64,000 nt of DNA from an uncultured Ignavibacteriaceae bacterium. Lineage in GTDB: Bacteria; Bacteroidota; Ignavibacteria; UBA10030. Positions 51,402 through 64,000 of the stretch are shown here, piece by piece; the stretch's first letter is position 1, and each line of letters starts with the position of its first letter. The translations under genes and the position numbers were made by a program. Under the pieces are notes generated by a model. It did no database searches. It was not told the DNA's origin and worked only from the letters and a program-made list of their open reading frames with translations. The stretch covers positions 8,932 through 72,931 of the forward strand of contig CAZYYD010000004.1 of the NCBI GenBank assembly GCA_964651225.1, in the 5' to 3' direction.

Positions 51402-51530
51402 CTTAGTAACGACCTCACTACAGCATATAACCAGATTGTTACGTTTCAGAGCCTACCGGACAGATGAGGGTGTAAAACTAAGAGATGGTTTTGAGTATAT
51501 TAGAACATCTTTTAGCACAGGAGAACCACC

Positions 51531-51896
51531 ATGGTCCAGCCATCAAGCAGTGAAAGTGTAGTCCGGGAAATCAGACGAAAGACCCGGCAGAAATATAGCA
51601 GCGAGGAGAAGATCCGAATCGTCCTGGAGGGATTACGCGGAGAAGTAGGAATTGCAGAACTTTGTCGCCGAGAGGGTATTCACGCCAACCTGTATTATAA
51701 GTGGAGTAAAGAGTTCTTAGAAGCAGGCAAGAAACGATTGCAGGGAGATACGGTACGGGAAGCCAGCAGCGTTGAAGTCGTAGAATTGAAAAAGGAGAAT
51801 GATCAACTCAAACAGTTGGTGGCAGAACTGTCCCTGAAGCATCGTGTGCTTAAAAAAAGCTTGAATGGTTTGGAGTCCGGCTTCGAGGAAGCATGA
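51531..51896 (+). CDS. IS3-family transposase OrfA (HTH)
   Basis: It has RKTRQKYSSEEKIRIVLEGLRGEVGIAELCRREGIHANLYYKWSKEF plus a leucine-zipper-like tail. AGGAG precedes the ATG. Confidence 0.88.
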   Translation: MVQPSSSESVVREIRRKTRQKYSSEEKIRIVLEGLRGEVGIAELCRREGIHANLYYKWSKEFLEAGKKRLQGDTVREASSVEVVELKKENDQLKQLVAELSLKHRVLKKSLNGLESGFEEA

Positions 51897-52888
51897 GGTA
51901 CCGTCAGGCAGAGAAGATGGAGATCATTCGGATCGTGGAATCCTCGGAAATAGGTGTGACTCGCACATTGGAAGAATTGCAGGTGAATCGCAGCACTTTC
52001 TATGAGTGGTATCAACGCTATCGTCGCGAGGGATATGATGGGCTTGCACTCAAACAACCGCATCCCAAACGATTCTGGAACAAGATCCCTGATCATGAGA
52101 AGGAACAAATTGTTTCTATCGCCTTAGAACGCCTCGAAGACACACCACGGCAGCTGGCGTGGCATATTACCGATACACAGGGCTATTTTATCTCAGAATC
52201 GAGTGTTTATCGGATACTCAAGCAATACGACTTGGTCCCCAGTCCGAACTACATTGTTCTGGCAGCGGCCGATCAATTTCAGCACCCGACCAATCGTGTC
52301 AACGAGATGTGGCAGACAGATTTCACCTACTTCAAGATCATCAGTTGGGGCTGGTATTATTTGGGCAGCATCTTGGACGACCACTCCCGATACATCATTG
52401 CCTGGAAACTGTTCACGTCTATGGCAACAACGGATGTCAAAGAACTCCTTGATCTTGCCGTTGAAAAGACGGGTGTTGAGCACGTTGCGGTCAGACATCG
52501 TCCACGACTGCTTTCCGATAATGGTGCTTGTTACGTCTCTGATGAATTAAGGAAATATCTCACGTCCAAAGGCATGACACAGACGCACGGAGCACCATAT
52601 CATCCGATGACCCAAGGAAAGATCGAGCGGTATCATCGCTCGATGAAAAATGAGATCAATTTGCAGAAGTATTATATGCCGTGGGAACTGGAACAGGAGA
52701 TCGAACGCTTTATTGATTATTACAACAATAGGCGCTATCACGAAGCCCTGGATAATGTCACCCCAGCAGATGTATATTATGGCAGACAACGGGAGATCAT
52801 TACACGGAGGGAACGACTCAAACAGAAGACTCTCAAGGCACGAAAAAGATACAATTTATCACAATCAACAGCTCAAATCATCTCTTAG
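51893..52888 (+). CDS. IS3-family transposase OrfB (DDE/rve integrase core)
   Basis: It has WQTDFTYF, LLSDNGACYVS and PMTQGKIERYHRSMKNE. There is an ATGA overlap with orfA. Confidence 0.9.
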   Translation: MRYRQAEKMEIIRIVESSEIGVTRTLEELQVNRSTFYEWYQRYRREGYDGLALKQPHPKRFWNKIPDHEKEQIVSIALERLEDTPRQLAWHITDTQGYFISESSVYRILKQYDLVPSPNYIVLAAADQFQHPTNRVNEMWQTDFTYFKIISWGWYYLGSILDDHSRYIIAWKLFTSMATTDVKELLDLAVEKTGVEHVAVRHRPRLLSDNGACYVSDELRKYLTSKGMTQTHGAPYHPMTQGKIERYHRSMKNEINLQKYYMPWELEQEIERFIDYYNNRRYHEALDNVTPADVYYGRQREIITRRERLKQKTLKARKRYNLSQSTAQIIS

Positions 52889-52895
52889 GAAATAT

Positions 52896-53453
52896 TCAAT
52901 TTTGTCCAATTGACTTTGACGACATACAGTTGTAGAAATGGAATTGCATCTTTATAAGGTGAGAATGCTCAATGGCATAATGTTCCAGATTTTCTTCATT
53001 TGTAGTTCCATCCCCCGGCGTCTTTTTTAGGTTGAAAAGGACAACATCATTCAAAGCACATATACGCGTATAGGCACTGATTTCTTTTATTACTTTCCAT
53101 GGAATGTCAGCCGGAAGATTTCGGATCCCCACTGTCCATCTCGCCAAAGTATCGAGCATCGGAACCGGTTCGTAGCTGCGAATTTTATCAATGAGACTCC
53201 ACCCTCCTTGACCTGGGCTCTTGGGCTCTTTAAGAAGAAATAGAATTTTTATTTTGCTAGCGAGATAAGATCCTTCCTCAACAACACCATCTAGAACAAT
53301 TTCCTTGAGATCGAGCGGATACTTTGAAAAGTATTTTCTTTCTTTTTGCCTAATTGTAGATCGAAAAACACCACAGAACCCGATATTCACTTTTCTCATG
53401 TTCGAACCAATCATCAATAATGGTTTTTTATTCATTTTGAATATCTGGATCAA
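52896..53453 (-). CDS. UDG-fold-like protein, 3' end fused into the IS right end (probably truncated)
   Basis: It has KILFLLKEPK and VVLFNLKKTPG, which parallel 50392..51063. The last four codons (IGQN-stop) lie inside the IS terminal repeat. The start is uncertain (TTG 53453, ATG 53435, 53414 or 53399). Confidence 0.5.
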   Translation of the reverse strand: MIQIFKMNKKPLLMIGSNMRKVNIGFCGVFRSTIRQKERKYFSKYPLDLKEIVLDGVVEEGSYLASKIKILFLLKEPKSPGQGGWSLIDKIRSYEPVPMLDTLARWTVGIRNLPADIPWKVIKEISAYTRICALNDVVLFNLKKTPGDGTTNEENLEHYAIEHSHLIKMQFHFYNCMSSKSIGQN

Positions 53454-53456
53454 GAA

Positions 53457-54302
53457 TCATAAGCTTGAGAAACCAAGATTATAGTCAATAAAGCTGACAT
53501 TGACCTGTCCCCCATAGCCCTTGTGCTTCTCGCATGGACAATTAGAAGAAGAAAGTGTAGCGCCAATAACAAAGCGAGTGCCCACTTTTTCTCCATTATA
53601 TAGATATGCCGATGAAGTAGTTGGTTCCAATCGGAGGAATACATCGGATATTGTTTCAAAATCGCGTCGAAGGGAAACAGATTTGCCTGTCTTTAATGGC
53701 GCTTTAACAAAAACAGGTATATTGAAATTATCAGCCAGTTCTTTAAGCTGCCGTGGCATGTGCTTTTCCTCAAAGAATTGTTCAATATAGCCAATATCAT
53801 CAACAATGATACTTTTAGGTGGAGTTTTAATCATGGCTCGCACGAAATCCTTCCAACCTAAATTTGCCGAATCGCCAAGATCAATAGATGTCGTGTGTAG
53901 GAGTTCTACATTTTCTTGTTTTGACAGAAATTGCTGAGCAAGACTTGGGGATGAAACGCCAAGAAACCTTGCTATATTCTGATCCATATCCCCTAAACTC
54001 CCTCCCACCTCTACATAATCAACTTTGAACTTTTTCGCCAACCCCTGATAGAGAAATGTATGGACGAGGAATGCATTGAGTATTCTATCATCAGGGCCAA
54101 AGATTGAAATCAGCTGACCGCCAAAGAACCCATTGGAAAGTGAATCAATATTCTTTATCCCAACTCCAAGGCCTGCTATATCATTGGTCGATTCGAAGTT
54201 ATCCTTGGGTTCGAAAACTTTATTGGATTTGCACGCATTCAAATCAAGCGGCTTGATAAAAGGGAAGCTTGTTAACGCCTTAAGTGCAGATCTTCTTTCC
54301 AT
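53457..54302 (-). CDS. degenerate RecA/KaiC/DnaB-C-like protein (P-loop lost)
   Basis: GIKNIDSLSNGFFGGQLISIFGPDDRILNAF has the GxxGxGKT position replaced, and SIIVDDIGYI is Walker B-like. The ATG at 54302 lies 8 nt after GAGGAG. Confidence 0.5.
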   Translation of the reverse strand: MERRSALKALTSFPFIKPLDLNACKSNKVFEPKDNFESTNDIAGLGVGIKNIDSLSNGFFGGQLISIFGPDDRILNAFLVHTFLYQGLAKKFKVDYVEVGGSLGDMDQNIARFLGVSSPSLAQQFLSKQENVELLHTTSIDLGDSANLGWKDFVRAMIKTPPKSIIVDDIGYIEQFFEEKHMPRQLKELADNFNIPVFVKAPLKTGKSVSLRRDFETISDVFLRLEPTTSSAYLYNGEKVGTRFVIGATLSSSNCPCEKHKGYGGQVNVSFIDYNLGFSSL

Positions 54303-54326
54303 TAATATTCTCCTCACCAACAAGTA

Positions 54327-55577
54327 TTAAGCCATATGGAATCCGAACTTTCCGTTGGTCGGTTCTGGTTCTTCATAGAATCCCTGATGGCTTTCCCGGA
54401 TCATCGTTGCAAGATATTCTTTAGAAAGCTTCTGTGGTTCGAACGAAGCAATGAGTTCTAAATGCTTCACTATATTGGCAATAAATGCTCCAGTTGCCTT
54501 CTTTACCTCAAGCAATGAGAGGACATTATCATCAAACAACTCAATGATCGTCGATAATTTTGTTTTACTCTTCACCAACTCGATATATTGCTTGGGTTCG
54601 ATCAAATTTACATCAATGACAAAATCAAATCGTCCGGGACGACTCGCTGCCAGATCGACAAGCCGTTTATCGTTGGTTGTTGCCAACAGAAAGAAATCCT
54701 GCCGCACGAATCCATCGAGTTTTTGGAGGAATGTTGCTAGTCTTGGCGTATAGAGGCCTTCGCTTCGGGAGCCGGTCATCAGGTCAATATCGTCAATACA
54801 AAGAACGACTGGAGAGAACATCTCGGCAAATTCGAAGAGTGAATTGATCCTGCTTTCATTGCCATTGGAGAATATAAACGTCGCTCTATTATTGCAGGAA
54901 TTTGCTATAGCACGGATGATTTTGGTTTTTGCGGTTCCCGGTTTCCCTGCGAGTAAGTAACGGAGTGATCTCTTTTGTTCATTGAAATGCAATACACTTT
55001 TAATAAAGAGTTGAATGTGGTCATTTATTTGTGATGGCAGATAGATTTCATCCAAGACATCGTTGCCTACATCAGACGCTTCTACATAAATATCGCCGAC
55101 CACATCTGCATAGCCGGATTTATCTACAGCCACCTGCAACATCCGATTCCGATACGGTGAATTTTGCACTGCCTCACGTTTGAGGAAATACACCAATTCC
55201 TCGCTTTGTTTCGAGGCAGGATCAAGACCCAAGATGGCAATTGTATGCTCAATCCTTCCCAAGCTTCTATCGGTAACATACATTGAAAGATCATACAATT
55301 GTTTTCTAAACATTACTGTTGCCGAGATATCATAATCGCTGATTCTGATAAAACCAGTGCTTTTCTCTATTGCCAGAGAAAGGAGTTTTGGCTTACTTTG
55401 ATTTTTACCAGAAACACCAGTTATTCTTATTACATCACATTCCGGATAGGGTAGATTCTTAGATCGAATTCGGTAGAGAAGACTTTTAACAAACTCGTAA
55501 TGATAATGGATCAGGACCTCTTCATAAGAGCTTGGAGTGAATTGCTGATCCTCAACTGCATTATTCTCTGTGTCCAT
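54327..55577 (-). CDS. classic-clade AAA+ ATPase with an uncharacterised N-terminal domain
   Basis: It has Walker A LLAGKPGTAKT, Walker B VVLCIDDIDLM, and a second region of homology ATTNDKRLVDLAASRPGRFD. Confidence 0.8.
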   Translation of the reverse strand: MDTENNAVEDQQFTPSSYEEVLIHYHYEFVKSLLYRIRSKNLPYPECDVIRITGVSGKNQSKPKLLSLAIEKSTGFIRISDYDISATVMFRKQLYDLSMYVTDRSLGRIEHTIAILGLDPASKQSEELVYFLKREAVQNSPYRNRMLQVAVDKSGYADVVGDIYVEASDVGNDVLDEIYLPSQINDHIQLFIKSVLHFNEQKRSLRYLLAGKPGTAKTKIIRAIANSCNNRATFIFSNGNESRINSLFEFAEMFSPVVLCIDDIDLMTGSRSEGLYTPRLATFLQKLDGFVRQDFFLLATTNDKRLVDLAASRPGRFDFVIDVNLIEPKQYIELVKSKTKLSTIIELFDDNVLSLLEVKKATGAFIANIVKHLELIASFEPQKLSKEYLATMIRESHQGFYEEPEPTNGKFGFHMA

Positions 55578-55643
55578 AGTCGGCTCCTTATTTTATATAA
55601 AGATAGCCAACAGGCACGAGAACTTCGTATCATTGAATGATAG

Positions 55644-56513
55644 TTATTTCGAATTCCAGAAATCAGTAACTTTTTGAGAGATGATTATTTTTGATTCCTT
55701 TAAATATTCTTTCCCTTTTCTTGTTGGATGCCATGACGCAATATATAATCGACCCCCTTTATTATTTATCCAATAGTCTTTTTTTTGTGTTCGAGACGCT
55801 GTTTCCTTTCTGTCTGAAATGGGAAAATAGTATTTCTGAAGTTGCTGCTCAAATTGGCAAGATGTCAAAAATATAATAATATCAGGTTTGAGTATTTTAA
55901 TTTCATTCTTTAAAATATTAGTGCAATTCTCTGCAAAATAATCCTCAACAAATTTAGTATTGATATTGGATCCCTGTTTATGAGCACCGCACTTGACAAT
56001 ATTCGTAACAGCAACATAATCGAGCCATTGAAACTCTTTCTTTTCTTCTAAATCAATTATTTTGGAATTTAGCTGATAATGAATAAGTTTGGTCACCTCA
56101 TTAATATATTTCCAATATTGAGAACCTTTTTTATAACCAGGGACAGGTTTAATAAATTCATAAAAATATCGAGGATTGAAAGAAGCTATCGAATCTATTT
56201 TCCTTCCAATTAGATCATCCCGATCATCATCCCATTTATTCTTCGGTATCTCAATAGCCTTCCCCACAAAAAGTATTTTGGGATTTATTGATTTATATTT
56301 TGAACCAATTGTATGAGGCAAAAAAGGGCCTACGACTAGTTTGTTTTTCTCTATTGCTATTTTGTGACATTTCTGACATTTGCTGTTTGAAGCTAAATTC
56401 CATATATGCTTCTTCTTGAAATATTGATCAAGCTTTCTGTATTCAGCTTGTTGAGCAATTCGTTCTGCTAGTCTATCTTTTTGCTCCCTAAGAGACTTAT
56501 CATCACGATTCAT
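55644..56513 (-). CDS. UDG-superfamily-like protein with N-terminal coiled-coil and CxxC
   Basis: It has KILFVGKA, VAVTNIVKCGAHK, LKPDIIIFL and ASWHPTRKG, collinear with family-4 UDG motifs. The catalytic GEAPG is not conserved. Confidence 0.5.
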   Translation of the reverse strand: MNRDDKSLREQKDRLAERIAQQAEYRKLDQYFKKKHIWNLASNSKCQKCHKIAIEKNKLVVGPFLPHTIGSKYKSINPKILFVGKAIEIPKNKWDDDRDDLIGRKIDSIASFNPRYFYEFIKPVPGYKKGSQYWKYINEVTKLIHYQLNSKIIDLEEKKEFQWLDYVAVTNIVKCGAHKQGSNINTKFVEDYFAENCTNILKNEIKILKPDIIIFLTSCQFEQQLQKYYFPISDRKETASRTQKKDYWINNKGGRLYIASWHPTRKGKEYLKESKIIISQKVTDFWNSK

Positions 56514-56528
56514 CTGGCATCCTCCTTT

Positions 56529-57377
56529 CTAAATACATTGAGTGATACTTCTTGCCTTATTTATAACCATATCTTGGAGCTCTTTTGGGCTCTGAATGCA
56601 AACATCTCCACCCCACCCCATCAGCCAATTGCCGACCTGTTCCAGTGAATTAACTTTCATCTTCAGAATAATAGAACCATCTTTCTGTTGGATTATCTCC
56701 TGATCTTCCGTCCAGACCTCGGCTTTAATAATCGGTGCCACCTTCTTGCTAAAGCGGCAAACGACCTCGTATTCAGTCGAACCACGCCAGTAATTGAACG
56801 TATTTCTAAAAAAATCCGTGCTGTTGTAGTCCTTAGCTCGTTGGAACTTCTTTTCCAACATTTCGATATTCACAATGTTTTCTACTAAGAATTGCTTAAA
56901 AAGACCATCTGATTTGGCAATTAGGCGCCAATCTCGCGAAGTCGGGATAAGATCGTATGGTTCAACCTCTCTGAAAACGGTTTCATCCTCAAACATCTTG
57001 TAATACGTTAGGCGAACTAAGCGCTTATTTTCAATTGCTTTCACAAGCAAGACAAATAAATCTATCGCCTTATCATGAAGTTTACGAACTATCAATGAAA
57101 TGTTTTTGGGATAGCTGATAACACTGCCAATGGATGCCAAGTAGAGAGCAAGAAGGTCTTGATTGATCTTAGGATCAAGTTTCTTGAGAAGCTGGACCCC
57201 ATTCCTAACGCTATGAATGGGAATTCCACGCTCGCGCAAATCCCTCAGATCCCTTTGAATAGTGGCGACCTCTACATCGAATTCCTTACAGAGGTCTGTA
57301 ATTGAAGGATGTTTTTCAACTGTCTGTATCTTTGAGAGAATTTCAACCTGCCGTCGTTCTTTTGAGATGTTTTTCAT
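56529..57377 (-). CDS. WYL-domain transcriptional regulator (HTH-WYL-WCX architecture)
   Basis: It has a DeoR-type HTH ITDLCKEFDVEVATIQRDLRDLRERGIPI. The middle region (VRLTYYK…REVEPYDLI…DWRLIA) is WYL-like. The ATG at 57377 is preferred over the long track ORF. Confidence 0.75.
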   Translation of the reverse strand: MKNISKERRQVEILSKIQTVEKHPSITDLCKEFDVEVATIQRDLRDLRERGIPIHSVRNGVQLLKKLDPKINQDLLALYLASIGSVISYPKNISLIVRKLHDKAIDLFVLLVKAIENKRLVRLTYYKMFEDETVFREVEPYDLIPTSRDWRLIAKSDGLFKQFLVENIVNIEMLEKKFQRAKDYNSTDFFRNTFNYWRGSTEYEVVCRFSKKVAPIIKAEVWTEDQEIIQQKDGSIILKMKVNSLEQVGNWLMGWGGDVCIQSPKELQDMVINKARSITQCI

Positions 57378-57504
57378 CGCTCGGACTAGTTCCCCTGGTT
57401 GTGGAATGGCAGGTTTATGTATATCAAAGCTACATAAATTGGAACTACTACGCAATTTGATCTTAGGACACCTTTTCATATTTCGAAAAAGAATACCGGA
57501 AATC

Positions 57505-57565
57505 CCTATATAGACCTGATTTAACGCCAAATAAAAATTCTAGGAATTCGATTTGCCTATATAGA
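57505..57565. promoter_or_regulatory. two copies of CCTATATAGA (palindromic core CTATATAG) 51 bp apart, upstream of the WYL regulator gene
   Basis: Exact 10-mers lie at 57505-57514 and 57556-57565, in the integrase/WYL intergenic region. Confidence 0.4.
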
Positions 57566-57717
57566 ACAGAAAATATTTCCAGAAAAAATCTGGCAAAACC
57601 ACTTTGCCCCTCCTCTCGACATTGATTCCTCTGGTATATCGGTGTAGAAGCAACCCCTGGAACTCCTGTAAGGCTTAAAAGCGGGTCCCATCTGAGCTCT
57701 TGGATCCCAGTGCGATA

Positions 57718-58752
57718 CTAAGACGCATCATTTTCGAAGATTCGTATCTTATTAACTGCGTTATGTAATTGACACGGTTGCAGATGGGAATAGATCTCTG
57801 TTACTGTTATGGTGCTATGGCCAAGAAGCCGTTGAACCTCATACAAAGGAACCCCATCCTGCACCAACCAACTTGCGAATGTATGCCGCAATGAATGAAA
57901 ATGCAGACATTGTTTCTTGATTCCGCTCACCGATAATATCTTCTCAAATTTATGAGTGACCAAGTTTTCCGCTATCTTCCTTTCATTAAAGGTAAACACC
58001 AATTGTTCTGGATCATCTCTGAATCTTCCTTGAAGCATGGGAAGTAGAGTAGTGTGAATAGGGACGATCCTTTTCTTCCCCGCCTTAGTCCTGAAGGACG
58101 GACCGGATTCTACTTGGATTGTCTTCTTCTCCAGATCGATATTTTTCCACCGCAGATTAGTAATTTCACTGCGGCGCATACCGGTTAGCACCGCAAATTG
58201 AATCACATCTTTGAACCAGTCTTCTTTTATCGCGCTATAAAAAGCGGAAAACTCCTCTTTCGTAAAATATTCAGGATATTGTTCTGGCACACGGCAAAGA
58301 GGTAACAGTGCGAAGGGATGTTGGTTTATCATCTTCCAGCGGTATGCTTTACTTATTGCACCGCGTAGTGCACGAAGCTCGATGTTAACAGTGACCGGTG
58401 ATACTTCCTGTAATCGACTCGATTGATATCTATCCCAATGATATGGGGTTAACCGCTCAAGCGTGATATCACCAATAAGTCTAAGAAAAATGTCTCTCGT
58501 TCTTTCATATATTCCGATAGTTCCTTCCCTAAGATTTGATTTAGAATATTCAAGGAATTGAACCATATACTTTGAGAATAGTTTTGGGGCTTTCCTTTTT
58601 TCACTTTCAATTTTAAAAGTTTGCAGAAATTTTAGTGCATCTGATTTTCTGCGTGCCCTCGTAGACACCTTCTGTCGTCTATTATTGTCATCTCTATAAA
58701 AAAGGTAATAAATGCCATTGCGATGTTTTGAAAGGAACATATCGACCTCCAT
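57718..58752 (-). CDS. int: tyrosine-type site-specific integrase
   Basis: It has the catalytic pattern GMRRSE…, HSLRHTFAS…, and LLGHSTITVTEIYSH (R…HxxR…Y). Confidence 0.9.
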   Translation of the reverse strand: MEVDMFLSKHRNGIYYLFYRDDNNRRQKVSTRARRKSDALKFLQTFKIESEKRKAPKLFSKYMVQFLEYSKSNLREGTIGIYERTRDIFLRLIGDITLERLTPYHWDRYQSSRLQEVSPVTVNIELRALRGAISKAYRWKMINQHPFALLPLCRVPEQYPEYFTKEEFSAFYSAIKEDWFKDVIQFAVLTGMRRSEITNLRWKNIDLEKKTIQVESGPSFRTKAGKKRIVPIHTTLLPMLQGRFRDDPEQLVFTFNERKIAENLVTHKFEKILSVSGIKKQCLHFHSLRHTFASWLVQDGVPLYEVQRLLGHSTITVTEIYSHLQPCQLHNAVNKIRIFENDAS

Positions 58753-58909: not shown

Positions 58910-59410
58910 TCATAGATAATTTTGGGCCTTGTATTGAAGACTTTGTCGGAGGATTGTGAAGCAGGCTTTGTCGAGGTGTTGTCTTTGCATAATTTCTTTC
59001 ATCGTGTATCCAGATGAGATGTCGTTTAGGATGTCCGTTTCGCTCTCGCTTAATGCACTCATAAAGTTGTTCGTGATACAATAATCGAGAGGCGTCGTCT
59101 TCGTATTCAAGACAGCATCACCGAGCGTATGAACATCATTTCTCCGTGTCGGTTTATCCAGATATGATCGCTCCGGTTTATTCCACGCATCCTTCTGACT
59201 CTTCCCCATTTCATCTACTGGGAAGGTTGAACGAAAGCTCAACTCCTTTGAACGGAAATGCATAATTGATTTTTGCAGGCCAAGCGAACACCTCTTGCCC
59301 AATTTCTTTTCCTGCAGAAAAGCAAAGGTAATTAGTTCGCTGCGCTGAAGTTTGTCACGGCTAAATTGCTCTGAATAATGCCATAATGTTTGATAATCCT
59401 GCTCTGACAT
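58910..59410 (-). CDS. putative regulator with C-terminal LuxR/sigma-70 region-4-like HTH
   Basis: LSESETDILNDISSGYTMKEIMQRQHL resembles an HTH of the LuxR/sigma region 4 type. It is divergent from the Ubl operon. Confidence 0.4.
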   Translation of the reverse strand: MSEQDYQTLWHYSEQFSRDKLQRSELITFAFLQEKKLGKRCSLGLQKSIMHFRSKELSFRSTFPVDEMGKSQKDAWNKPERSYLDKPTRRNDVHTLGDAVLNTKTTPLDYCITNNFMSALSESETDILNDISSGYTMKEIMQRQHLDKACFTILRQSLQYKAQNYL

Positions 59411-59620: not shown

Positions 59621-59830
59621 ATGAAGATCAAAGTTCTGAAACTCGGCGAAGCGGCAACAGAAGTGGATGCTGCTTCAGGCGCAACTGTGGCAGATGTCAT
59701 CAAACAAACAGGATATGGCGAGCACGGCTATACTCGAACACTCAACGGCCAGATCGTGTTTGACAGCACCGTGGTCAAAGACGGGGATGTGGTCACACTG
59801 GCTCCCAAGGTCGAGGGCGGGATTGCCTAA
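59621..59830 (+). CDS. ubiquitin-like beta-grasp protein (ThiS/MoaD-like), C-terminus …VEGG-IA
   Basis: The ATG at 59621 lies 8 nt after AAGGAG. It is 69 aa long, and DGDVVTLAPKVEGGIA is a ThiS/MoaD-type tail with two residues after GG. Confidence 0.7.
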   Translation: MKIKVLKLGEAATEVDAASGATVADVIKQTGYGEHGYTRTLNGQIVFDSTVVKDGDVVTLAPKVEGGIA

Positions 59831-59890
59831 GCAAATGCGAGAAGGCGGACTCGGATTGGGTTCGCCTTCTTCTTTTCTAGGAGCATACCT

Positions 59891-61051
59891 ATGGAACAAC
59901 AAATCTGGAACATTTTGAACAAATGCTGGCCAAATGATGATTTCGGTGTTATGCCTGCAGAAGATGGACAATTGAGAACCTTACCCGATGATGCAGTCAG
60001 CATTGTCTATCCGGTTCTTTCAAAGGATTTTCATTTCGAAACGATTGCCGGTGTTCGCGCAAAGCACAGTCCTGACATCTTCACGAGTGATAAAGCCTAT
60101 AACCACGAACACGAAGGATTGATACTGGCAAGGCTTATTGGATCGAGTATCTATTTCCTCTTCTCGGCAAACGATGAGCTTGAGCCTGTTGTCGATTCAG
60201 TACTGCAAGTATTGATTCCCAAAGCAAAGGAAGCCGCCGAGAAGTCGCAATTAAAGCAGTTTAAAAACGCGGTCTCATCAGCGATTGAAACACGAGTCAA
60301 GGAATACAGGAAACGGATCGAAGAGAACGAAGAAGAATCGCAGAACCTGGAGCGACAGCTTCAGAATCTTCACCGACAGATCAATACAGATACTCAGGCA
60401 TTCAGTGCTCTGGACGGCACCAAAGGACAGTGGAAAAAGAAGGCTGAGCGTGAGTTCGATTACTTGCAGCGTCTTACCGAGAACCTGTATGAATCGATCA
60501 GGATCGACGGCGACAAGCTTATAGCCAAAACATCTGAAGTTTCCATCAATTATGATGGTTCTTCTTATGAAATTGGTGAGTTCGAAGTGAGGATCGACCT
60601 TCCCTCCGGCGATCTGGACATTCAAAATCTCACACACGAAGTCGACGGCTATCAACATCCGCATATCTCAGACGGGAAACCATGCCTTGGCAATATAGGC
60701 AGCGGTGTTATTCGTATGCTGGCAGAGTTTGAGCTCTTCGGGGCGTTACAGATTATTCACAAATTCCTGCATAGCTATAATCCTCATTCCCCCTTTCACA
60801 AGATCGAGTATTGGAATCCCGACCATGAGGATGAGAATCGCAAGAATTACGAGGACTGCCGGGATGATAATTCAGGTTATGCATGTGTCGAGTGCGGCGG
60901 AGAGGATGGTAACTGTCCTTTCTATGACGAGGCATTCGAAGTATGCATGGAGAACTCGTCACTGGAAGAATGCACGCGTTGCGATTACCAGTGCCATATG
61001 GGAAGGCAGAGAATTCAACGACAACGACAAACGGAGGTGCAAGCAGCATGA
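59891..61051 (+). CDS. E2-like (UBC-fold) protein with N-terminal coiled-coil and Cys-rich C-terminus
   Basis: HPHISDGKPCLGNIG resembles the HPN…C E2 active-site loop. The tail CVECGG…CPFYD…CTRCDYQCH is zinc-binding-like. AGGAG precedes the ATG. Confidence 0.6.
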   Translation: MEQQIWNILNKCWPNDDFGVMPAEDGQLRTLPDDAVSIVYPVLSKDFHFETIAGVRAKHSPDIFTSDKAYNHEHEGLILARLIGSSIYFLFSANDELEPVVDSVLQVLIPKAKEAAEKSQLKQFKNAVSSAIETRVKEYRKRIEENEEESQNLERQLQNLHRQINTDTQAFSALDGTKGQWKKKAEREFDYLQRLTENLYESIRIDGDKLIAKTSEVSINYDGSSYEIGEFEVRIDLPSGDLDIQNLTHEVDGYQHPHISDGKPCLGNIGSGVIRMLAEFELFGALQIIHKFLHSYNPHSPFHKIEYWNPDHEDENRKNYEDCRDDNSGYACVECGGEDGNCPFYDEAFEVCMENSSLEECTRCDYQCHMGRQRIQRQRQTEVQAA

Positions 61052-61734
61052 ATAAGACAAAGGTATACCTCTCCATTCAGGCGTATCAAAAGATGCGTCT
61101 CTGGGTGGAGATGGCAAAAGGTGAGATCAGTTGGCTCGGATCTGTTTCTGAGCTGAAGGATCAGGATGGAATATTCGAAGCTTTCCTGATCGAAGATATT
61201 CACCTTCTGAAACAGACCTGCAGCAGTGCCAACACGGTGCTGGACGACCAGTCGGTAGGCCAGTTCTTAACCGAAATGGTTATGAAGAATCAGGATACAT
61301 CCAAGATCAAAGCCTGGATTCATTCCCACGCTTCAATGAAATGCTTCTGGTCCAATATTGATGAGGAATGCATTCGTAATCTTGCCAATTCAAGCTATGT
61401 CATATCGATCGTCACCAATAAAGACGGCGATATCCTGGCACGTGTAGATGTATTCAAGCCATTTCACATCACCGTCAGTGAAGCTGTAGTCGACATCTAT
61501 TATCCGGCAGATGAACAGTTGAAGAAGCTTTGCAGGAAGGAGTTCAAAGAAAAGGTCACAGAATCGATGTTCATTCCGGCAGGTCCGGTGACACAGCCAT
61601 TCCCCGGAATGACGGAGTTGGACCGAAAAGTCGAAGATCTGGAAGAACAGGTAGGATCTGGCAGAATCTCTCTGGAAGAATACCAGCGGGAGATCTCCAG
61701 GCTCGAAGTTGAATATGAACCGATGTGGGATTAG
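61048..61734 (+). CDS. JAB/MPN (JAMM) metalloprotease
   Basis: It has the JAMM motif HSHASMKCFWSNID (HxH-x7-S-xx-D) and an upstream Glu (EISWLG). There is an ATGA overlap with the E2-like gene. Confidence 0.75.
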   Translation: MNKTKVYLSIQAYQKMRLWVEMAKGEISWLGSVSELKDQDGIFEAFLIEDIHLLKQTCSSANTVLDDQSVGQFLTEMVMKNQDTSKIKAWIHSHASMKCFWSNIDEECIRNLANSSYVISIVTNKDGDILARVDVFKPFHITVSEAVVDIYYPADEQLKKLCRKEFKEKVTESMFIPAGPVTQPFPGMTELDRKVEDLEEQVGSGRISLEEYQREISRLEVEYEPMWD

Positions 61735-61738
61735 GCAA

Positions 61739-62026
61739 ATGGCACATTTACGATTCATAGAAGATTACTCTTCGGTAGAAGAGCTCTTTGACGACCTACA
61801 ATGCCTCAATCACCAGACCATAGTGCTCTGTTCAAAAAAACAATTGGCAAGGCTGGGCATCGATCTCACAGATGCCCACCGAGCCGCTTCCAGTTACATC
61901 TGCGGTGGTGAAGCTGATGTATGGCTGGACATCGTCACAGATAAGAATCATTTCTTCATTCAATCAATTAAGGAGCAACAAACTAATGGACGAAACAAAA
62001 TATCACCGGCAGTTAGACATACTTGA
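61739..62026 (+). CDS. small hypothetical protein between the JAB and E1 genes
   Basis: The ATG at 61739 gives MAHLRFIEDYSS…, and the ORF overlaps the E1 start by ~40 nt. The call rests on the ORF alone. Confidence 0.35.
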   Translation: MAHLRFIEDYSSVEELFDDLQCLNHQTIVLCSKKQLARLGIDLTDAHRAASSYICGGEADVWLDIVTDKNHFFIQSIKEQQTNGRNKISPAVRHT

Positions 62027-62636
62027 TCCCAAACTGATGGATGTTCCTGTCGTTGTCATAGGAGCCGGCGCGACAGGAAGTTTTACTGCCCTCTCCCTTG
62101 CCAAGATGGGGGTCAGGAATATCACCGTCTACGACTTCGATACGGTCGAAGAACATAACCTGCCAAATCAGTTCTACAGGCAATGCGATATTGGAAAACC
62201 GAAGGTGATCGCATTGCAGGAGATCATCGATCAGTTTGAAGGGATTCAGATCAATGCAAAGAACGAGAAGTATCGAGGTCAAAGGCTTTCCGGGGTAGTT
62301 ATTACCTGTGTCGATTCTATGGATGCGCGGTTGAATATCTGGAAGTTCGTGAAGAACAATCCTGATGTGCAGCTTTATATTGATAGCCGTATGGGGGCTG
62401 AGGTAATGCGTGTCTATTCAGTGAATCCAATGGACAAGTTCCAATGCAATTCATATGAAGAGAACCTCTACCCTTCTTCCGAAGCACTGCAGGAACGATG
62501 CACGGCAAAGACGATTATGTATACGGTGCTTTCGTTGGCTTCACTGCTGGCCAATCAAGTGAAAAAGTTCCTGGTCGGCGATGAACTGAAACGCGAACTG
62601 CTCTTTGACCTGAAGACCATCACACTCCTGACGTAA
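61986..62636 (+). CDS. ThiF/MoeB-family E1-like adenylyltransferase (short form)
   Basis: It has YHRQLDIL…VVVIGAGATGSFTALSLAKMG (Rossmann GxGxxG) and DFDTVEEHNLPNQF. The ATG at 61986 follows AAGGAG. Confidence 0.8.
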   Translation: MDETKYHRQLDILDPKLMDVPVVVIGAGATGSFTALSLAKMGVRNITVYDFDTVEEHNLPNQFYRQCDIGKPKVIALQEIIDQFEGIQINAKNEKYRGQRLSGVVITCVDSMDARLNIWKFVKNNPDVQLYIDSRMGAEVMRVYSVNPMDKFQCNSYEENLYPSSEALQERCTAKTIMYTVLSLASLLANQVKKFLVGDELKRELLFDLKTITLLT

Positions 62637-62682: not shown

Positions 62683-62772
62683 ATGAAGAAAACGACTATC
62701 AAGGTCATTATAGCAATTTTGCAGGGAGCTTTAACGGCTCTCACATCTATATTCGGGGGAAGAAACAAATGA
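62683..62772 (+). CDS. 29-aa hydrophobic micropeptide
   Basis: GGAGGAG lies 4 nt upstream of the ATG at 62683, giving MKKTTIKVIIAILQGALTALTSIFGGRNK. Its stop overlaps the next ATG as ATGA. Confidence 0.4.
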   Translation: MKKTTIKVIIAILQGALTALTSIFGGRNK

Positions 62773-63305
62773 CGACATTTATGAATGAGTTGTTGGCCGA
62801 GGTCGAGGAAAAAGAACAGCAGGTAAAATTAAACCTCGACCGATTGAAGGCAGATCAGCTGTTGATGGCAGTTGAAAAGCTTGACGCACAAATAGCTGAT
62901 GTCGCCAAACTTGCAGACGATGAAATCAAACTCATCGAGCAATACAGGCAATCTGAGGTAGAACGAATCGAGAAGAAACGCTCTTGGCTACTGTTTAATC
63001 TGGAAGGATTTGCTCGTCAACAGATGGAACAGACTGGTGACAAAACCATTCGGTTGCCTCACGCAACATTATCACTACGTAAAGGGCGAGATAAAGTCGA
63101 GATACAGGATATGGATGTATTCCTTCGGGTTGCTCCTCGCCTTGGATTCCTTCGAACAACACCGGAGAAGCACGAGCCTGATATGACAGCTTTGGCTGCT
63201 TATGTCAAAAGGACCGGTGAAATCCCCATCGGCACGAAGCTGATTCCAGGAACAGTCAACTTTTCATACACTTTAACAAACGGAGGAAATAATGGGAACC
63301 AATAA
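62769..63305 (+). CDS. gam: phage Mu Gam-like host-nuclease inhibitor
   Basis: It has an N-terminal coiled-coil and …IRLPHATLSLRKGRDKVEI…, matching the pattern and size of the Gam family. This is a motif-level call. Confidence 0.55.
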   Translation: MTTFMNELLAEVEEKEQQVKLNLDRLKADQLLMAVEKLDAQIADVAKLADDEIKLIEQYRQSEVERIEKKRSWLLFNLEGFARQQMEQTGDKTIRLPHATLSLRKGRDKVEIQDMDVFLRVAPRLGFLRTTPEKHEPDMTALAAYVKRTGEIPIGTKLIPGTVNFSYTLTNGGNNGNQ

Positions 63306-63774
63306 CGGTAACGGGACACAACGGCCCAAACTTGAACCTGCACTCAATCAGGAAGTGCGTGTTCGACTCCTGAAGGACAAGCCATTCACCGGTGAGAACT
63401 CGGTTGGCAAATACTATCTGTATTCTGTTCAGAATGTGAATAACGCAGAAGAGCTGGCATTCTTCGCACCTGCTGAAGTCCATCAAATCATCGAGGATAA
63501 GAAGCTGACTAAGGGCTCAGAGTTCATCATCAAGAAGGTGCCGTATCAGAACGGAAAAAAGATCGGATCGAAGCTTGAGCTGTCGTTGGTGAGTGTGGCT
63601 GCTGCTCCTCCCCCGGTTTCAAGCCAGGAACGCGGAGACAATCTGAAACAGCTACTATTGACGTGTATTTTGGATGCAGCGGCCATTGTCAAAGAGGCTG
63701 GCGTTCAGTTCTCGAATGATGAGTTGCAGAAGCTGGCAACGACACTGTTCATTCAACGGACCAGATCCCTTTAG
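63292..63774 (+). CDS. phage-like hypothetical protein
   Basis: It is an ORF overlapping the end of gam in an operon-like arrangement. Confidence 0.45.
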   Translation: MGTNNGNGTQRPKLEPALNQEVRVRLLKDKPFTGENSVGKYYLYSVQNVNNAEELAFFAPAEVHQIIEDKKLTKGSEFIIKKVPYQNGKKIGSKLELSLVSVAAAPPPVSSQERGDNLKQLLLTCILDAAAIVKEAGVQFSNDELQKLATTLFIQRTRSL

Positions 63775-64000
63775 TTGAAGTTCTCTCTGTTTCTGCCTAC
63801 ATTTGTCCAGCCAGACGAACGCGGTTGATTCAGGTCAGCCGATTCATCACATACGAAAACACACCATCATCTTGACGTGGGTAACGCGACAACGCGCCCT
63901 GCTGCAAATGATGGTGTGATGTGTTCGTCTGGCTGATGAATATGTTACCCGCAAGAGTGGCAGGGCTTTTTGTTGGGAAGAAATGAACAGCCTCTGTTGT

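What the first reader, a model, noticed from the sequence alone, without database searches (positions are those of the whole stretch)
59621..62636. Ubiquitin-like / E2-like / JAB / E1-like conjugation cassette inside a phage-like module
**Cassette.** A compact plus-strand operon encodes four components.
1. A 69-aa beta-grasp protein ending in GG-IA.
2. A 386-aa protein with an HPH…C loop (HPHISDGKPCLG) like the E2 active site, plus a Cys-rich tail.
3. A JAMM protease with an intact HxH-x7-S-xx-D motif.
4. A short ThiF-type E1.

The genes are translationally coupled. The E2/JAB junction has an ATGA overlap, and the E1 gene has a strong SD.

**Prior knowledge.** Operons of this type were predicted computationally (prokaryotic Ubl/E2/E1/JAB cassettes) and have recently been shown to act in anti-phage defence as Bil-type systems.

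**What is unusual here.** The E2-like protein is much longer than usual, with a ~230-aa coiled-coil N-terminus. The cassette sits between an integrase/regulator pair and a Mu Gam-like gene. It may therefore be carried by a temperate phage or satellite rather than by the host.
Basis: partly seen in the sequence, partly recalled or inferred. Interest (0 to 1): 0.7.

Follow-up and report, generated by a model that had tools for sequence, protein, structure and literature searches.

The report
Mobile-element ubiquitin-like conjugation cassette
This is an intact four-enzyme operon for ubiquitin-style protein tagging, carried on a small integrative element in an Ignavibacteriota-like bacterium; it belongs to a large unannotated family also found in phages and differs from the known bacterial Bil, Bub, CBASS and PRTRC systems.

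Summary
The cassette holds:
- a 69-aa SAMP2/ThiS-like Ubl ending GG-IA;
- a 386-aa E2-like protein;
- a JAMM peptidase;
- an extra 95-aa ORF;
- a 216-aa ThiF-type E1.

The genes are co-oriented and tightly packed.

**E2 call.** A profile of residues 199-312 hits only eukaryotic E2s in the PDB, and hhalign gives 92% probability. HPH aligns to HPN and the invariant Cys265 aligns to the catalytic Cys. Foldseek was not significant, and no Pfam, NCBIfam or PADLOC model covers the E2-like or JAB protein.

**Family size.** The E2-like family is large: 2,741 representatives at 50% identity. Where neighbours could be read, the same JAB and minimal E1 lie beside it, usually with a Ubl whose terminal Gly is followed by 1-5 extra residues.

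**Not Bil.** It works like Bil but is not a member. The E1 lacks the IAD and CYS domains, and the E2 has a classical HPx...C motif rather than CEHH.

**Not a prophage here.** Host type-IX-secretion cargo genes follow, and no virion genes are present. Close relatives sit in a conserved array: RadC/DUF932, cassette, WGR-ligase, Gam, 160-aa. Distant relatives occur on phage contigs.

**Role.** Defence or counter-defence remains open.

**Verdict.** A new variant of a known kind.

The parts
57611..57694 (.). Conserved non-coding segment (core CTCCTGTAAGGCTTAAAAGCGGGTCCCATCT). It is the probable left boundary or a regulatory region of the module.
   Evidence: The same segment lies upstream of RadC or the Ubl cassette in L005, L009 and L012. 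It occurs once in the window. No tRNA or Rfam match.
57718..58752 (-). Tyrosine integrase (344 aa)
   Evidence: Pfam Phage_integrase 3.4e-33; PHROG 1 at 3.3e-73.
58910..59410 (-). 166-aa protein, divergent from the cassette. Its C-terminus reads like a sigma-70 region 4 / LuxR-type HTH (my reading only), so it is a candidate regulator.
   Evidence: Homologues sit in the same divergent position in L005 and L010. No Pfam, PHROG or NCBIfam hit.
59621..59830 (+). Ubl: 69-aa SAMP2/ThiS-like beta-grasp precursor ending VEGG-IA
   Evidence: Pfam ThiS 1.5e-7. PDB SAMP2 5lda_B 1.2e-6. In all 10 loci read, VEGG is followed by 1-5 variable residues.
59839..59871 (+). GC-rich intercistronic hairpin followed by a T-rich tract; a candidate attenuator or partial terminator between the Ubl gene and the enzyme genes
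   Evidence: 15-bp stem. A strong hairpin sits at the same place in 9 of 9 loci, with different stem sequences and MFE of -18.5 to -27.3 kcal/mol.
59891..61051 (+). E2-like conjugating enzyme (386 aa). Domains: N-terminal orphan alpha/beta domain, aa 1-93 (59891-60169); helical hairpin, aa 95-198 (60173-60484); UBC-like core, aa 199-312 (60485-60826), with HPH 256-258 and Cys265 (60683-60685); 8-Cys tail, aa 313-372 (60827-61006).
   Evidence: Motif invariance. Core profile hits E2s only in the PDB, UbcH7 at E=0.0046. hhalign to canonical E2s: 92% probability, E=6e-7. AF2 models.
61048..61734 (+). JAMM/MPN+ metallopeptidase (228 aa). Predicted to process the Ubl precursor and to deconjugate.
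   Evidence: Invariant E26, H92xH94, S102, D105. Profile hits Rpn11-type proteins at E=0.005 over the catalytic motif. ATGA overlap with the E2-like gene.
61739..62026 (+). Facultative 95-aa gene of unknown function. It overlaps the E1 start by 41 nt.
   Evidence: Called in L003 and L004. Protein-level homologues lie between JAB and E1 in L008, L012, L020 and L027. It is absent in L009, L005 and L006. No family hit.
61986..62636 (+). Minimal E1: a 216-aa ThiF-type adenylation domain with a single invariant Cys172 (62499-62501)
   Evidence: Pfam ThiF 84 bits. Nearest solved structures are Uba1-type E1s and E. coli ThiF. Cys172 aligns to ThiF Cys184 and is the only Cys invariant in 9 loci.
62683..62772 (+). 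29-aa hydrophobic ORF overlapping the Gam start (ATGA)
   Evidence: Called in L004; translation. Not followed up.
62769..63305 (+). Mu Gam-like DNA-end-binding protein (178 aa)
   Evidence: Pfam Phage_Mu_Gam 2.7e-9; PHROG 2205 at 6.4e-15. Found downstream of the cassette in 8 loci.
63292..63774 (+). 160-aa protein of unknown function; the most frequent neighbour of the cassette
   Evidence: Homologues follow the cassette or Gam in 9 loci. At least 181 clusters in Bacteroidota-type metagenomes, none with a Pfam hit.
63806..63974 (+). Structured ~170-nt non-coding element (long hairpin plus terminator-like tail) at the right end of the module
   Evidence: 94.7% identical to L012 while the flanking genes are 72-82% identical. 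MFE -78.8 kcal/mol, z = -5.9. Analogous long hairpins lie downstream in L006 and L026. No Rfam match.

Best explanation
The locus encodes a complete, probably active, ubiquitin-like protein-conjugation cascade carried by a small integrative mobile element.

**Inferred steps**
1. The Ubl is made as a precursor (VEGG-IA), probably in excess over the enzymes because a conserved hairpin follows its gene.
2. The JAMM peptidase trims the tail to expose Gly-Gly.
3. The minimal ThiF-type E1, probably a homodimer, adenylates the Ubl C-terminus. It may hold the Ubl as a thioester on its single invariant Cys172.
4. The Ubl passes to Cys265 of the E2-like protein. Its UBC-like core carries a classical HPx-x6-C active-site loop.
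5. The E2-like protein ligates the Ubl to lysines of target proteins without a separate E3. It is probably dimerised or scaffolded by its helical hairpin, and may pick targets with its variable N-terminal domain and/or its 8-Cys metal-binding tail.
6. The JAMM enzyme can also reverse the mark.

**Shown versus inferred.** Gene content, motifs, homology and synteny are shown here. Every catalytic step and the targets are inferred.

**Biological role.** The system is a mobile-element or phage accessory function. It is embedded in a co-oriented array with DNA-end and DNA-entry genes: RadC or DUF932, WGR plus ATP-dependent ligase, Gam. I lean slightly towards a role that benefits the element, such as establishment, counter-defence or inter-element competition, over classical host anti-phage defence. 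That direction is unresolved.
For: **Components intact and conserved**
-.

**E2 homology**
- The HPH[VI]x3-7C motif is present in 145 of 147 family representatives.
- The core profile retrieves E2 enzymes almost exclusively from the PDB, with HPH over HPN and Cys over the catalytic Cys.
- hhalign to canonical E2s gives 92% probability, E=6e-7, over 113 columns. The negative control gives 0.2%.
- One family member hits Pfam UQ_con at 2.9e-5.

**Precursor Ubl**
- Invariant VEGG is followed by 1-5 variable residues in 10 loci.
- On phage contigs the terminal Gly is followed by one or two residues: GG-VQ, GG-N, or a single G followed by N or A.
- One locus carries a tandem di-Ubl.

**JAMM**
- The motif is invariant and the profile matches Rpn11-type proteins.

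**Module conserved far beyond the close family**
- L013 and L016 carry the same JAB and minimal E1; in short L015 only the JAB start and a di-Ubl could be read. Twelve or more IMG/VR loci carry the same JAB and E1.

**Mobile-element context**
- Integrase in the window.
- Serine recombinase, TrwB-like coupling protein and orphan methyltransferase in L001 and L007.
- Conserved array RadC/DUF932 - cassette - (WGR-ligase, sometimes inserted between JAB and E1) - Gam - 160-aa.
- On phage contigs the neighbours are primase/helicase, methyltransferase, an SbcD-like nuclease and a small terminase subunit.
Against: - No biochemical data exist.
- Foldseek of a confident model of the E2 core (pLDDT 93) found no significant PDB match. 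The best was an unidentified ribosome-associated chain (7zw0_sj) at E=0.12. The UBC fold therefore rests on sequence profiles and secondary-structure order.
- The JAB and E2-like proteins fall below every curated Pfam and NCBIfam threshold.
- The E1 lacks the UFD and CYS domains that canonical E1s use to load E2s, so how E1 hands over to E2 is unclear.
- No target is known.
- The window also lies next to defence-type genes: an IetA-like AAA ATPase, a WYL regulator and Mrr. A defence role is therefore equally compatible with the context.
Confidence: 0.7

Rival explanations
1. It is a Bil-type anti-phage defence system that benefits the host. On infection it conjugates the Ubl to a phage structural protein, such as a tail protein, and blocks virion assembly.
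For: - Same gene order as BilABCD: Ubl, E2, JAB, E1.
- The Ubl needs C-terminal trimming, as BilA does.
- Defence-type genes are nearby: an IetA-like AAA ATPase (PADLOC 1.9e-15), a WYL regulator and Mrr. In relatives, AbiEii and nuclease/helicase genes lie nearby.
- Mobile elements often carry defence systems.
Against: - Family membership fails on E1 architecture and on the E2 motif.
- No PADLOC model hits the Ubl, E2-like or JAB protein.
- The most constant neighbours are DNA-entry and DNA-end genes of mobile elements (RadC, DUF932, Gam, ligase), not defence genes.
- Distant members lie inside phage genomes themselves, next to replication genes.
Confidence: 0.3
2. It is a sulfur-carrier pathway. 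The JAMM enzyme trims the Ubl, the E1 adenylates it, and the Ubl becomes a thiocarboxylate sulfur donor, as with CysO/Mec+ or QbsE/QbsD/QbsC. No protein conjugation occurs.
For: - The Ubl and E1 match ThiS and ThiF models best in Pfam and NCBIfam.
- JAMM-trimmed sulfur carriers with C-terminal extensions are known (my own knowledge, not checked here).
- E1 Cys172 aligns with ThiF Cys184.
Against: - Every ThiS, ThiF and MoeB equivalog score is far below its cut-off.
- No rhodanese, cysteine desulfurase, thiamine, molybdopterin or siderophore genes were seen in the four loci whose genes carry Pfam annotation and where the cassette genes are contiguous. In the others, only synteny with the annotated genes was checked.
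- An E2-like protein with an invariant HPH...C site is always present and translationally coupled.
- The context is a mobile element.
Confidence: 0.05
3. The cassette in this window is cargo of an integrated temperate phage or a phage satellite.
For: - An integrase and a Mu Gam-like gene flank it.
- The E1 matches PHROG 15670, a phage family of unknown function, at 5.2e-21.
- Distant relatives lie on phage contigs.
- Structural matches to proteins of uncultured viruses.
Against: - No capsid, terminase, portal, tail, lysis or replication genes lie in the ~6.4-kb unit or within 7 kb to the right, where type-IX-secretion cargo genes follow.
- To the left is a low-GC island with IS3, Mrr and unannotated genes.
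- The close family is absent from IMG/VR, GenBank phages and PLSDB.
- Relatives sit beside a T4SS coupling protein and a serine recombinase.
Confidence: 0.1

Closest known systems
Bil (bacterial ISG15-like) BilABCD operons, Types I and II
   Same: - Four separate genes in the same order: Ubl, E2, JAB/JAMM, E1.
- The Ubl carries residues after its reactive Gly that a JAB enzyme must remove.
- No separate E3.
- E2 self-association is proposed for target choice (PMC10557695; 10.1101/2024.11.21.623966).
   Different: - BilD is a ~500-aa E1 with IAD, AAD, a mobile CYS domain and a Zn site. Here the E1 is a 216-aa single domain with no CxxC.
- BilB is a CEHH-motif E2, with a His after the Cys. Here the motif is a classical HPH-x6-C, and the protein also has an N-terminal domain, a helical hairpin and an 8-Cys tail.
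- The Ubl is a single SAMP2/ThiS-like beta-grasp domain.
- None of the solved bacterial systems appears among the PDB sequence hits of the JAB or E1, nor among the 60 listed of 100 hits for the E2 core.
Eukaryote-like E1/E2/RING-E3/Rpn11 operon of Caldiarchaeum and some bacteria (PMC3082918, PMC5654768)
   Same: - A classical UBC-type E2 active-site loop, HPx then Cys.
- An Rpn11-like JAMM.
- Operonic organisation.
- A possible Zn-binding module acting with the E2.
   Different: - There the modifier is ubiquitin-like, the E1 is larger, and the RING E3 is a separate small protein.
- Here the modifier is SAMP2/ThiS-like and the E1 is minimal.
- Here the Cys-rich module is fused to the E2 and shows no detectable RING similarity.
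- The papers were found in searches but not read in detail here.
Archaeal SAMPylation (SAMP2 / UbaA / JAMM1)
   Same: - The Ubl is most similar to Pyrococcus SAMP2, solved in complex with JAMM1 (5lda).
- ThiF-type E1.
- JAMM deconjugase.
   Different: - SAMPylation uses no E2, and SAMPs end in a free GG.
- Here an E2-like protein is always present and the Ubl is a precursor.
- The UbaA equivalog score is 35 bits against a cut-off of 450.
PRTRC system / Iyer et al. 2006 operon class 6d (Ubl, JAB, E1, E2-like on plasmids and ICEs)
   Same: - Ubl, JAB, E1 and E2-like as separate genes carried by conjugative or integrative elements.
- DUF932-type neighbours (my own knowledge for PRTRC).
- Function still unknown.
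   Different: - The 6d E2-like proteins lack the classical His and instead have a His after the Cys (PMC1779556). Here the classical HPx motif is invariant.
- PRTRC_ThiF scores 56.8 bits against a cut-off of 144.75.
- No ParB-related gene or other PRTRC proteins were detected.
Type II CBASS Cap2/Cap3 and Bub (6E/DUF6527) operons
   Same: E1/E2/JAB chemistry in conflict systems. The E1 shares its Rossmann region with PADLOC Cap2 'E1-E2' models at 4e-14.
   Different: - Cap2 is an E2-E1 fusion that conjugates a CD-NTase and has no free Ubl.
- Bub uses Ubl-E2 or E2-E1 fusions plus a DUF6527 protease.
- None of these partners is present here.

Membership tests
Bil (BilABCD) | Operon of separate Ubl, E2, JAB/JAMM and E1 genes | tested here: met
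   The gene order is the same as BilA-D.
Bil (BilABCD) | E1 (BilD) with an inactive adenylation domain, an active adenylation domain, an inserted mobile CYS domain and a four-Cys Zn site (PMC10557695) | tested here: not met
   The E1 is 216 aa with one ThiF domain covering nearly its whole length. It has no CxxC pair and only one invariant Cys.
Bil (BilABCD) | E2 (BilB) of the CEHH type: catalytic Cys followed by a conserved His (PMC10557695) | tested here: not met
   The invariant residues are H256-P257-H258 upstream of C265. No invariant His follows the Cys.
Bil (BilABCD) | Ubl made with C-terminal residues beyond the reactive Gly, which the JAB enzyme removes | tested here: inconclusive
   The sequence feature is present: VEGG plus 1-5 residues in 10 loci. 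Cleavage itself cannot be tested with these tools.
Bil (BilABCD) | Protects against phage by conjugating the Ubl to a phage protein | not testable with these tools
   Needs phage-challenge assays and mass spectrometry.
UBC/E2 superfamily | HPN-type motif 7-8 residues upstream of a catalytic Cys | tested here: met
   HPH-x6-C is invariant in 24 close relatives. HPH[VI]x3-7C is present in 145 of 147 representatives. It aligns to HPN...C of UbcH7 and UbcH5.
UBC/E2 superfamily | Statistically supported sequence-profile homology to known E2s | tested here: met
   - HMM against the PDB: UbcH7 at E=0.0046, with E2 paralogues dominating the list.
- hhalign: 92.1% probability, E=6.1e-7.
- Control: 0.2%.
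UBC/E2 superfamily | UBC fold in a structure or model | tested here: inconclusive
   The AF2 core model (pLDDT 93) has the order helix, beta-meander, HPH loop, Cys, two helices. Foldseek against the PDB gave no hit at E<=0.001. The best hit was an unidentified ribosome-associated chain, 7zw0_sj; a Knl1 chain ranked 41st.
UBC/E2 superfamily | Passes the gathering score of Pfam UQ_con or of a Prok-E2 family | tested here: not met
   No hit for the window protein. Among 36 core sequences there were no Prok-E2 hits and one UQ_con hit at 0.016. P0148 scores 24.1 bits against a cut-off of 27.
JAMM/MPN+ metallopeptidases | E ... HxH-x7-S-xx-D metal-binding and catalytic motif | tested here: met
   E26, H92, H94, S102 and D105 are invariant in 15 relatives and present in distant loci.
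JAMM/MPN+ metallopeptidases | Passes the Pfam JAB or Prok-JAB gathering score | tested here: not met
   No Pfam, NCBIfam, PHROG or PADLOC hit. The only sequence support is a profile hit to Rpn11-type proteins at E=0.005.
ThiF/MoeB/E1 adenylating enzymes | ThiF-type nucleotide-binding domain above the Pfam gathering score | tested here: met
   PF00899 at 84.1 bits against a cut-off of 28.1. The GAGATGS loop is read directly from the sequence.
PRTRC / class 6d | PRTRC_ThiF equivalog score, ParB-related partner, E2-like protein lacking the classical His | tested here: not met
   PRTRC_ThiF scores 56.8 bits against 144.75. No ParB or other PRTRC hits. The classical His is present (against PMC1779556).
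ThiS/MoaD sulfur-carrier pathways | Carrier ends in a free Gly-Gly, with thiamine, molybdopterin or sulfurtransferase genes adjacent | tested here: not met
   The Ubl has C-terminal extensions. Equivalog scores are far below their cut-offs. No such neighbours in the loci whose genes carry Pfam annotation; the remaining loci were checked only for synteny with those genes.
Prophage / phage satellite (this locus) | Virion, packaging or lysis genes, or a satellite-type replication/hijack module, inside the integrated unit | tested here: not met
   PHROG and Pfam scans of the unit show only integrase, the cassette and Gam. Type-IX-secretion cargo genes follow on the extended contig.

The most novel reading that the evidence does not exclude
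A large, so far unannotated superfamily of ubiquitination systems is encoded by phages and integrative or conjugative elements rather than by hosts. Its E2 is closer in sequence to eukaryotic UBC enzymes (HPN-type loop) than to any Pfam Prok-E2 model, and no solved bacterial E2 appears among its listed PDB hits. This E2 carries its own targeting modules in cis: a variable N-terminal domain, a helical hairpin and a Cys-rich metal-binding tail. Invading DNA would use the system to tag host proteins, for example nucleases or defence proteins that attack incoming DNA ends, in concert with Gam, ligase and RadC. That would make it a counter-defence or host-takeover system, not a defence system. It could also be a lineage relevant to the origin of eukaryotic E2s.
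Probability: 0.3. Interest if true: 0.85.

Novelty: new variant of a known kind. Interest (0 to 1): 0.62.

Why it matters
Bacterial ubiquitination-like operons (CBASS Cap2/3, Bil, Bub) have so far been characterised as host immune systems.

Here the same chemistry appears in a distinct, widespread family: 2,741 clusters of the E2-like protein at 50% identity. No Pfam, NCBIfam or PADLOC model recognises the E2-like or JAB component. The family travels with mobile DNA, in integrative elements of Ignavibacteriota and Bacteroidota and, for distant members, in phage genomes. It lies inside arrays of DNA-end and DNA-entry genes.

If the system acts for the element, it would be an example of ubiquitin-like tagging used as an offensive or establishment tool in prokaryotic conflicts.

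Its E2 combines an HPN-type active site with fused candidate targeting modules and works with a minimal 216-aa E1. That makes it a compact model for asking how E1-to-E2 transfer and E3-independent target choice can work, and it bears on how eukaryotic-type E2s arose.

Tried and rejected
**Structure searches**
- Whole-protein HMM against the PDB gave nothing significant.
- Foldseek of the full model and of the core model against the PDB gave no hit at E<=0.001. The UBC fold is therefore not confirmed structurally.

**Other domains of the E2-like protein**
- The 8-Cys tail has no PDB relative and no RING similarity.
- The N-terminal domain has no PDB relative and is not a second E2/UEV-like copy.

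**Boundaries of the element**
- I looked for att-type direct or inverted repeats between the integrase-side boundary and the right end. Only a 10-nt chance-level match was found, so the ends are defined by synteny breaks only.

**Searches of sequence collections**
- The close family was not found in IMG/VR, GenBank phages or PLSDB plasmids.
- Two distant members were also not found in GenBank phages.
- The A3 alignment was too divergent for the search for related loci. It was replaced by a degenerate DNA pattern.

**RNA**
- No tRNA or Rfam family in the window or in the two conserved non-coding elements.
- A covariation test of the right-end hairpin on 4 sequences was uninformative because the alignment was poor.

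**Literature**
- Eight searches found no description of this family.
- The leading-region paper PMC11541004 does not mention ThiF, ubiquitin, RadC, DUF932 or Gam in its main text. The 'leading-region-like' reading of the neighbours is therefore my inference.

**Promoters**
- The sigma-70 promoter scan was not above chance. It is probably inapplicable to this phylum.

Full report
**1. What is in the sequence**

Between 59621 and 62636 the plus strand carries a tight gene string.

- **Ubl (59621-59830, 69 aa).** It ends ...APKVEGGIA.
- **386-aa protein (59891-61051).**
- **228-aa protein (61048-61734).** Its ATG overlaps the preceding stop (ATGA).
- **95-aa ORF (61739-62026).**
- **216-aa ThiF-type protein.** It starts at the ATG at 61986, 10 nt after an AAGGAG. 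The longer 254-aa ORF from 61872 is not the gene; gene callers on the same contig also chose 216 aa.

A 15-bp GC-rich hairpin followed by a T-rich tract lies between the Ubl gene and the next gene (59839-59871).

**2. Identity of the four components**

*Ubl.* It passes the Pfam ThiS threshold at 1.5e-7. Its closest solved relative is Pyrococcus furiosus SAMP2 (5lda_B, 1.2e-6). The alignment runs to SAMP2's terminal Gly-Gly, so the window protein has two extra residues. In ten loci the protein is almost invariant up to VEGG and is then followed by 1-5 unrelated residues: IA, ASTAR, LR, LS, ANTRR, C, NN, V, Q. This is the signature of a modifier made as a precursor, not of a sulfur carrier.

*E1.* The match is to Pfam ThiF at 84 bits against a cut-off of 28. 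It fails every NCBIfam equivalog cut-off: ThiF, MoeB, UbaA and PRTRC_ThiF. Its nearest solved relatives are Uba1-type E1s and E. coli ThiF. It is a bare adenylation domain with no second (inactive) domain, no inserted Cys domain, no UFD and no CxxC zinc site. One Cys, C172, is invariant across nine loci, including very distant ones, and aligns with ThiF Cys184.

*JAB.* No curated model hits it. However, E26, H92, H94, S102 and D105 are invariant in 15 relatives. A family profile finds Rpn11-type proteins across the catalytic motif at E=0.005. JGI annotators named several members 'proteasome lid subunit RPN8/RPN11'.

*386-aa protein.* It has no Pfam, NCBIfam, PHROG or PADLOC domain hit apart from coiled-coil noise. 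Its 31 close relatives are full length (about 380-397 aa) and unnamed.

The AlphaFold2 model (pLDDT 79) shows four parts:
- an N-terminal alpha/beta domain, residues 1-93;
- an ~80-residue helix that turns back into a second helix, residues 95-198;
- a beta-meander-plus-helices domain, residues 199-312;
- a poorly modelled tail holding eight invariant Cys.

Evidence that residues 199-312 are an E2 core:
- H256-P257-H258 and C265-L-G-N are invariant.
- An exhaustive HMM search found 2,741 representative proteins, and 145 of the best 147 carry HPH[VI]-x3-7-C.
- A profile of the core from 36 diverse members retrieves almost only eukaryotic E2 enzymes from the PDB (UbcH7 at E=0.0046, then UBE2L6, UBE2A, UBE2N, UBE2D). 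HPH lies over HPN and the Cys over the catalytic Cys.
The N-terminal domain used as a control gives 0.2%.
- One family member hits Pfam UQ_con at 2.9e-5, just below threshold.

Evidence against:
- Foldseek of a confident core-only model (pLDDT 93) found no significant PDB match. The best was an unidentified ribosome-associated chain (7zw0_sj) at E=0.12, and a Knl1 chain ranked 41st.
- None of 36 core sequences hits any Pfam Prok-E2 family.

I conclude that the protein is a divergent but genuine UBC-superfamily member with an intact classical active-site loop. The fold itself is supported by sequence profiles and secondary-structure order, not by structural search.

The N-terminal domain and the Cys-rich tail have no detectable relatives. 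Among 147 representatives, 82 carry Cys-rich tails built from CxxC-x4-6-CP units and 53 end right after the core. The N-terminal region varies from 0 to more than 600 residues. The constant part is therefore helical hairpin plus E2 core, with variable modules at both ends.

**3. The module elsewhere**

The close family occurs in Ignavibacteriota MAGs (80-81% identity), a Chitinophagaceae MAG and an uncultured Bacteroidetes chromosome, and in metagenome contigs.

Distant members keep the same partners:
- L016: E2-like (738 aa), then JAB, then a 215-aa E1, then a 75-aa Ubl ending VEGG-Q.
- L013: E2-like (620 aa), then JAB, then E1.
- L015: a tandem di-Ubl, then E2-like, then JAB.

A hairpin separates the Ubl and E2 genes in 9 of 9 loci, with unrelated stem sequences. 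This suggests selected attenuation or processing that would give more modifier than enzymes.

**4. Context**

*In the window.* The cassette is preceded by a divergent 166-aa gene and a tyrosine integrase, and followed by a 29-aa ORF, a Mu Gam-like gene and a 160-aa gene. The same contig continues with type-IX-secretion cargo proteins; no phage structural genes follow (L003). To the left lie:
- a WYL-WCX regulator;
- a UDG-like protein;
- an IetA-like AAA ATPase;
- an IS3;
- further left, Mrr, all in a ~40% GC island.

*Limits of the unit.* Comparison with L012, L009 and L005 puts the shared unit between a conserved ~85-nt segment (57611-57694) and a structured ~170-nt element (63806-63974). 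No att repeat was found.

*Across at least 12 loci.* The co-oriented order is [RadC or DUF932] - Ubl - E2-like - JAB - (95-aa) - (WGR + ATP-dependent DNA ligase) - E1 - ... - Gam - 160-aa.
- In L008, L026 and probably L024 and L027 (both contigs end before an E1), the WGR-ligase pair sits between JAB and E1, that is, inside the cassette.
- In L001 and L007 the array abuts a TrwB-like coupling protein, a serine recombinase (L001), an orphan N6/N4 methyltransferase (L001), SymE, DUF3276 and DUF932.

*Phage and plasmid collections.* The close family is absent from IMG/VR, GenBank phages and PLSDB. A degenerate DNA pattern for HPH...CLGN found 19 IMG/VR loci. Of these, 16 encode the E2 core, 13 the same JAB family and 12 the same E1 family. 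Seven have an upstream Ubl-like ORF whose terminal Gly is followed by one or two residues: GG-VQ, GG-N, or a single G followed by N or A. Their neighbours include:
- primase and helicase;
- a DNA methyltransferase;
- an SbcD-like nuclease;
- a RuvC-like resolvase;
- an endolysin;
- in L037, a small terminase subunit.

The full-length model also matches proteins of uncultured viruses in BFVD at E=6e-5 to 3e-4.

The superfamily is therefore mobile-element borne. The window's branch sits in integrative, ICE-like elements of the Ignavibacteriota/Bacteroidota group, and distant branches sit in phages.

**5. Mechanism**

*Shown here:* gene content, motifs, homology and synteny.

*Inferred:*
1. JAMM trims the Ubl tail.
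2. The E1 adenylates Gly68, and may form a thioester on C172.
3. The Ubl transfers to C265 of the E2-like protein.
4. The E2-like protein ligates the Ubl to targets without an E3. Targets would be chosen by its variable N-terminal domain and/or its metal-binding tail, with the helical hairpin acting as a dimerisation or E1-docking scaffold. The hairpin tip, DGTKGQW, is nearly invariant.
5. JAMM reverses the mark.

*Biological direction.* This is open. The constant companions protect or repair DNA ends or are typical of incoming mobile DNA (Gam, ligase with a WGR domain, RadC, DUF932). The phage copies lie in replication and DNA-modification regions. Both observations favour a function that serves the element. 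Neighbouring defence genes and the Bil precedent favour defence. I put about 0.4 on an element-serving role and about 0.3 on defence.

**6. Comparison with known systems**

- **Bil.** The system works like Bil: same four activities and gene order, precursor Ubl, no E3. It fails two defining features tested here, the BilD E1 architecture and the BilB CEHH motif.
- **Iyer et al. class 6d / PRTRC.** It differs because it keeps the classical His and scores far below the PRTRC_ThiF cut-off.
- **CBASS Cap2/3 and Bub.** It differs because it lacks their fusions and partner proteins.
- **Nearest relatives by sequence.** For the Ubl, E2 core and JAB the nearest solved relatives are archaeal or eukaryotic: SAMP2, UbcH7 and Rpn11-type proteins. 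For the E1 they are Uba1-type E1s and E. coli ThiF. None is a characterised bacterial immune system.
- **Literature.** Eight full-text searches found no description of this family. A mention in subscription-only surveys cannot be excluded.

**7. Verdict**

- The 'conjugation cassette' reading is supported.
- 'Bil-type' holds as an analogy, not as membership.
- 'Prophage or satellite' is not supported for this locus.
- This is a new variant of a known kind: an unannotated, widespread family of ubiquitination-like systems carried by mobile elements and phages.
- Interest: 0.62.

Noticed in passing
window 63806-63974 (+); L012 16092-16260; L006 ~15388-15560; L026 ~15466-15683: A ~170-nt intergenic element after the 160-aa gene folds into a long hairpin (MFE -78.8 kcal/mol, z = -5.9) and ends in a GGGG/CTTTTTGTTGG terminator-like tail. 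It is 94.7% identical to L012 while neighbouring genes are 72-82% identical. L006 and L026 have analogous long hairpins with different stem sequences. There is no Rfam match. It could be a non-coding RNA, a single-strand DNA element or the end of the mobile unit.
   Followed up: partly
window 57611-57694: A ~85-nt conserved non-coding segment lies just outside the 3' end of the integrase gene. The same segment lies upstream of RadC or the Ubl cassette in L005, L009 and L012, which have no integrase there. It is not a tRNA or a known RNA. It may be an att site or a regulatory region.
   Followed up: partly
window 52896-57530 (-): A co-oriented set lies left of the integrase: a WYL-WCX HTH regulator (56529-57530), a UDG-superfamily-like protein (55644-56513), an AAA ATPase matching PADLOC IetA at 1.9e-15 (54327-55577), and 288-aa and 185-aa unknowns. 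It looks like a defence-type operon, but no IetS-like protease was identified.
   Followed up: no
window 38000-58000: A low-GC (~40%) variable island contrasts with 45-49% GC elsewhere. It contains an Mrr restriction endonuclease (38750-39649), an IS3-type transposase pair (51531-52888), PEGA and lectin-domain proteins, and many unannotated ORFs.
   Followed up: no
L008 12403-13592; L024 12205-13133; L026 12211-13398; L027 2948-4131: In four relatives a WGR-domain protein and an ATP-dependent DNA ligase lie directly after the JAB gene. In L008 and L026 the E1 gene then follows, so the pair sits between JAB and E1, inside the Ubl operon. The L024 and L027 contigs end before an E1. In others (L006, L012) the same pair lies just after the E1. 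This suggests a functional link between the Ubl system and DNA-end repair.
   Followed up: partly
L015 1-399: A distant relative encodes a head-to-tail di-Ubl (…SKIEGG-ARVKILKLGE…SKIEGG-M) directly upstream of its E2-like gene. This resembles a polyubiquitin-type precursor.
   Followed up: no
window 63292-63774; family P0210-P0329: The 160-aa protein that follows Gam belongs to a family of at least 181 clusters in Bacteroidota-type metagenomes. None has a Pfam domain or a name. The family is more widespread than the close family of the cassette.
   Followed up: partly
L012 9926-12754: In the Ignavibacteriota MAG contig CAWHXW010000003.1 the E2-like, JAB and E1 genes are each split into 2-3 ORFs. 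This could reflect frameshifts from long-read assembly or pseudogenisation.
   Followed up: no
window 61986-62636: The minimal E1 matches PHROG 15670 (unknown function) at 5.2e-21 over nearly its full length, so phage genomes already in PHROGs carry similar minimal E1 genes that remain unannotated.
   Followed up: no
L037 5588-9539; L048 3832-7783: On two IMG/VR contigs the gene order is E2-like (705 aa), E1, JAB (376 aa), with E1 before JAB. A primase and a helicase follow, and in L037 a small terminase subunit lies ~4.5 kb upstream.
   Followed up: partly
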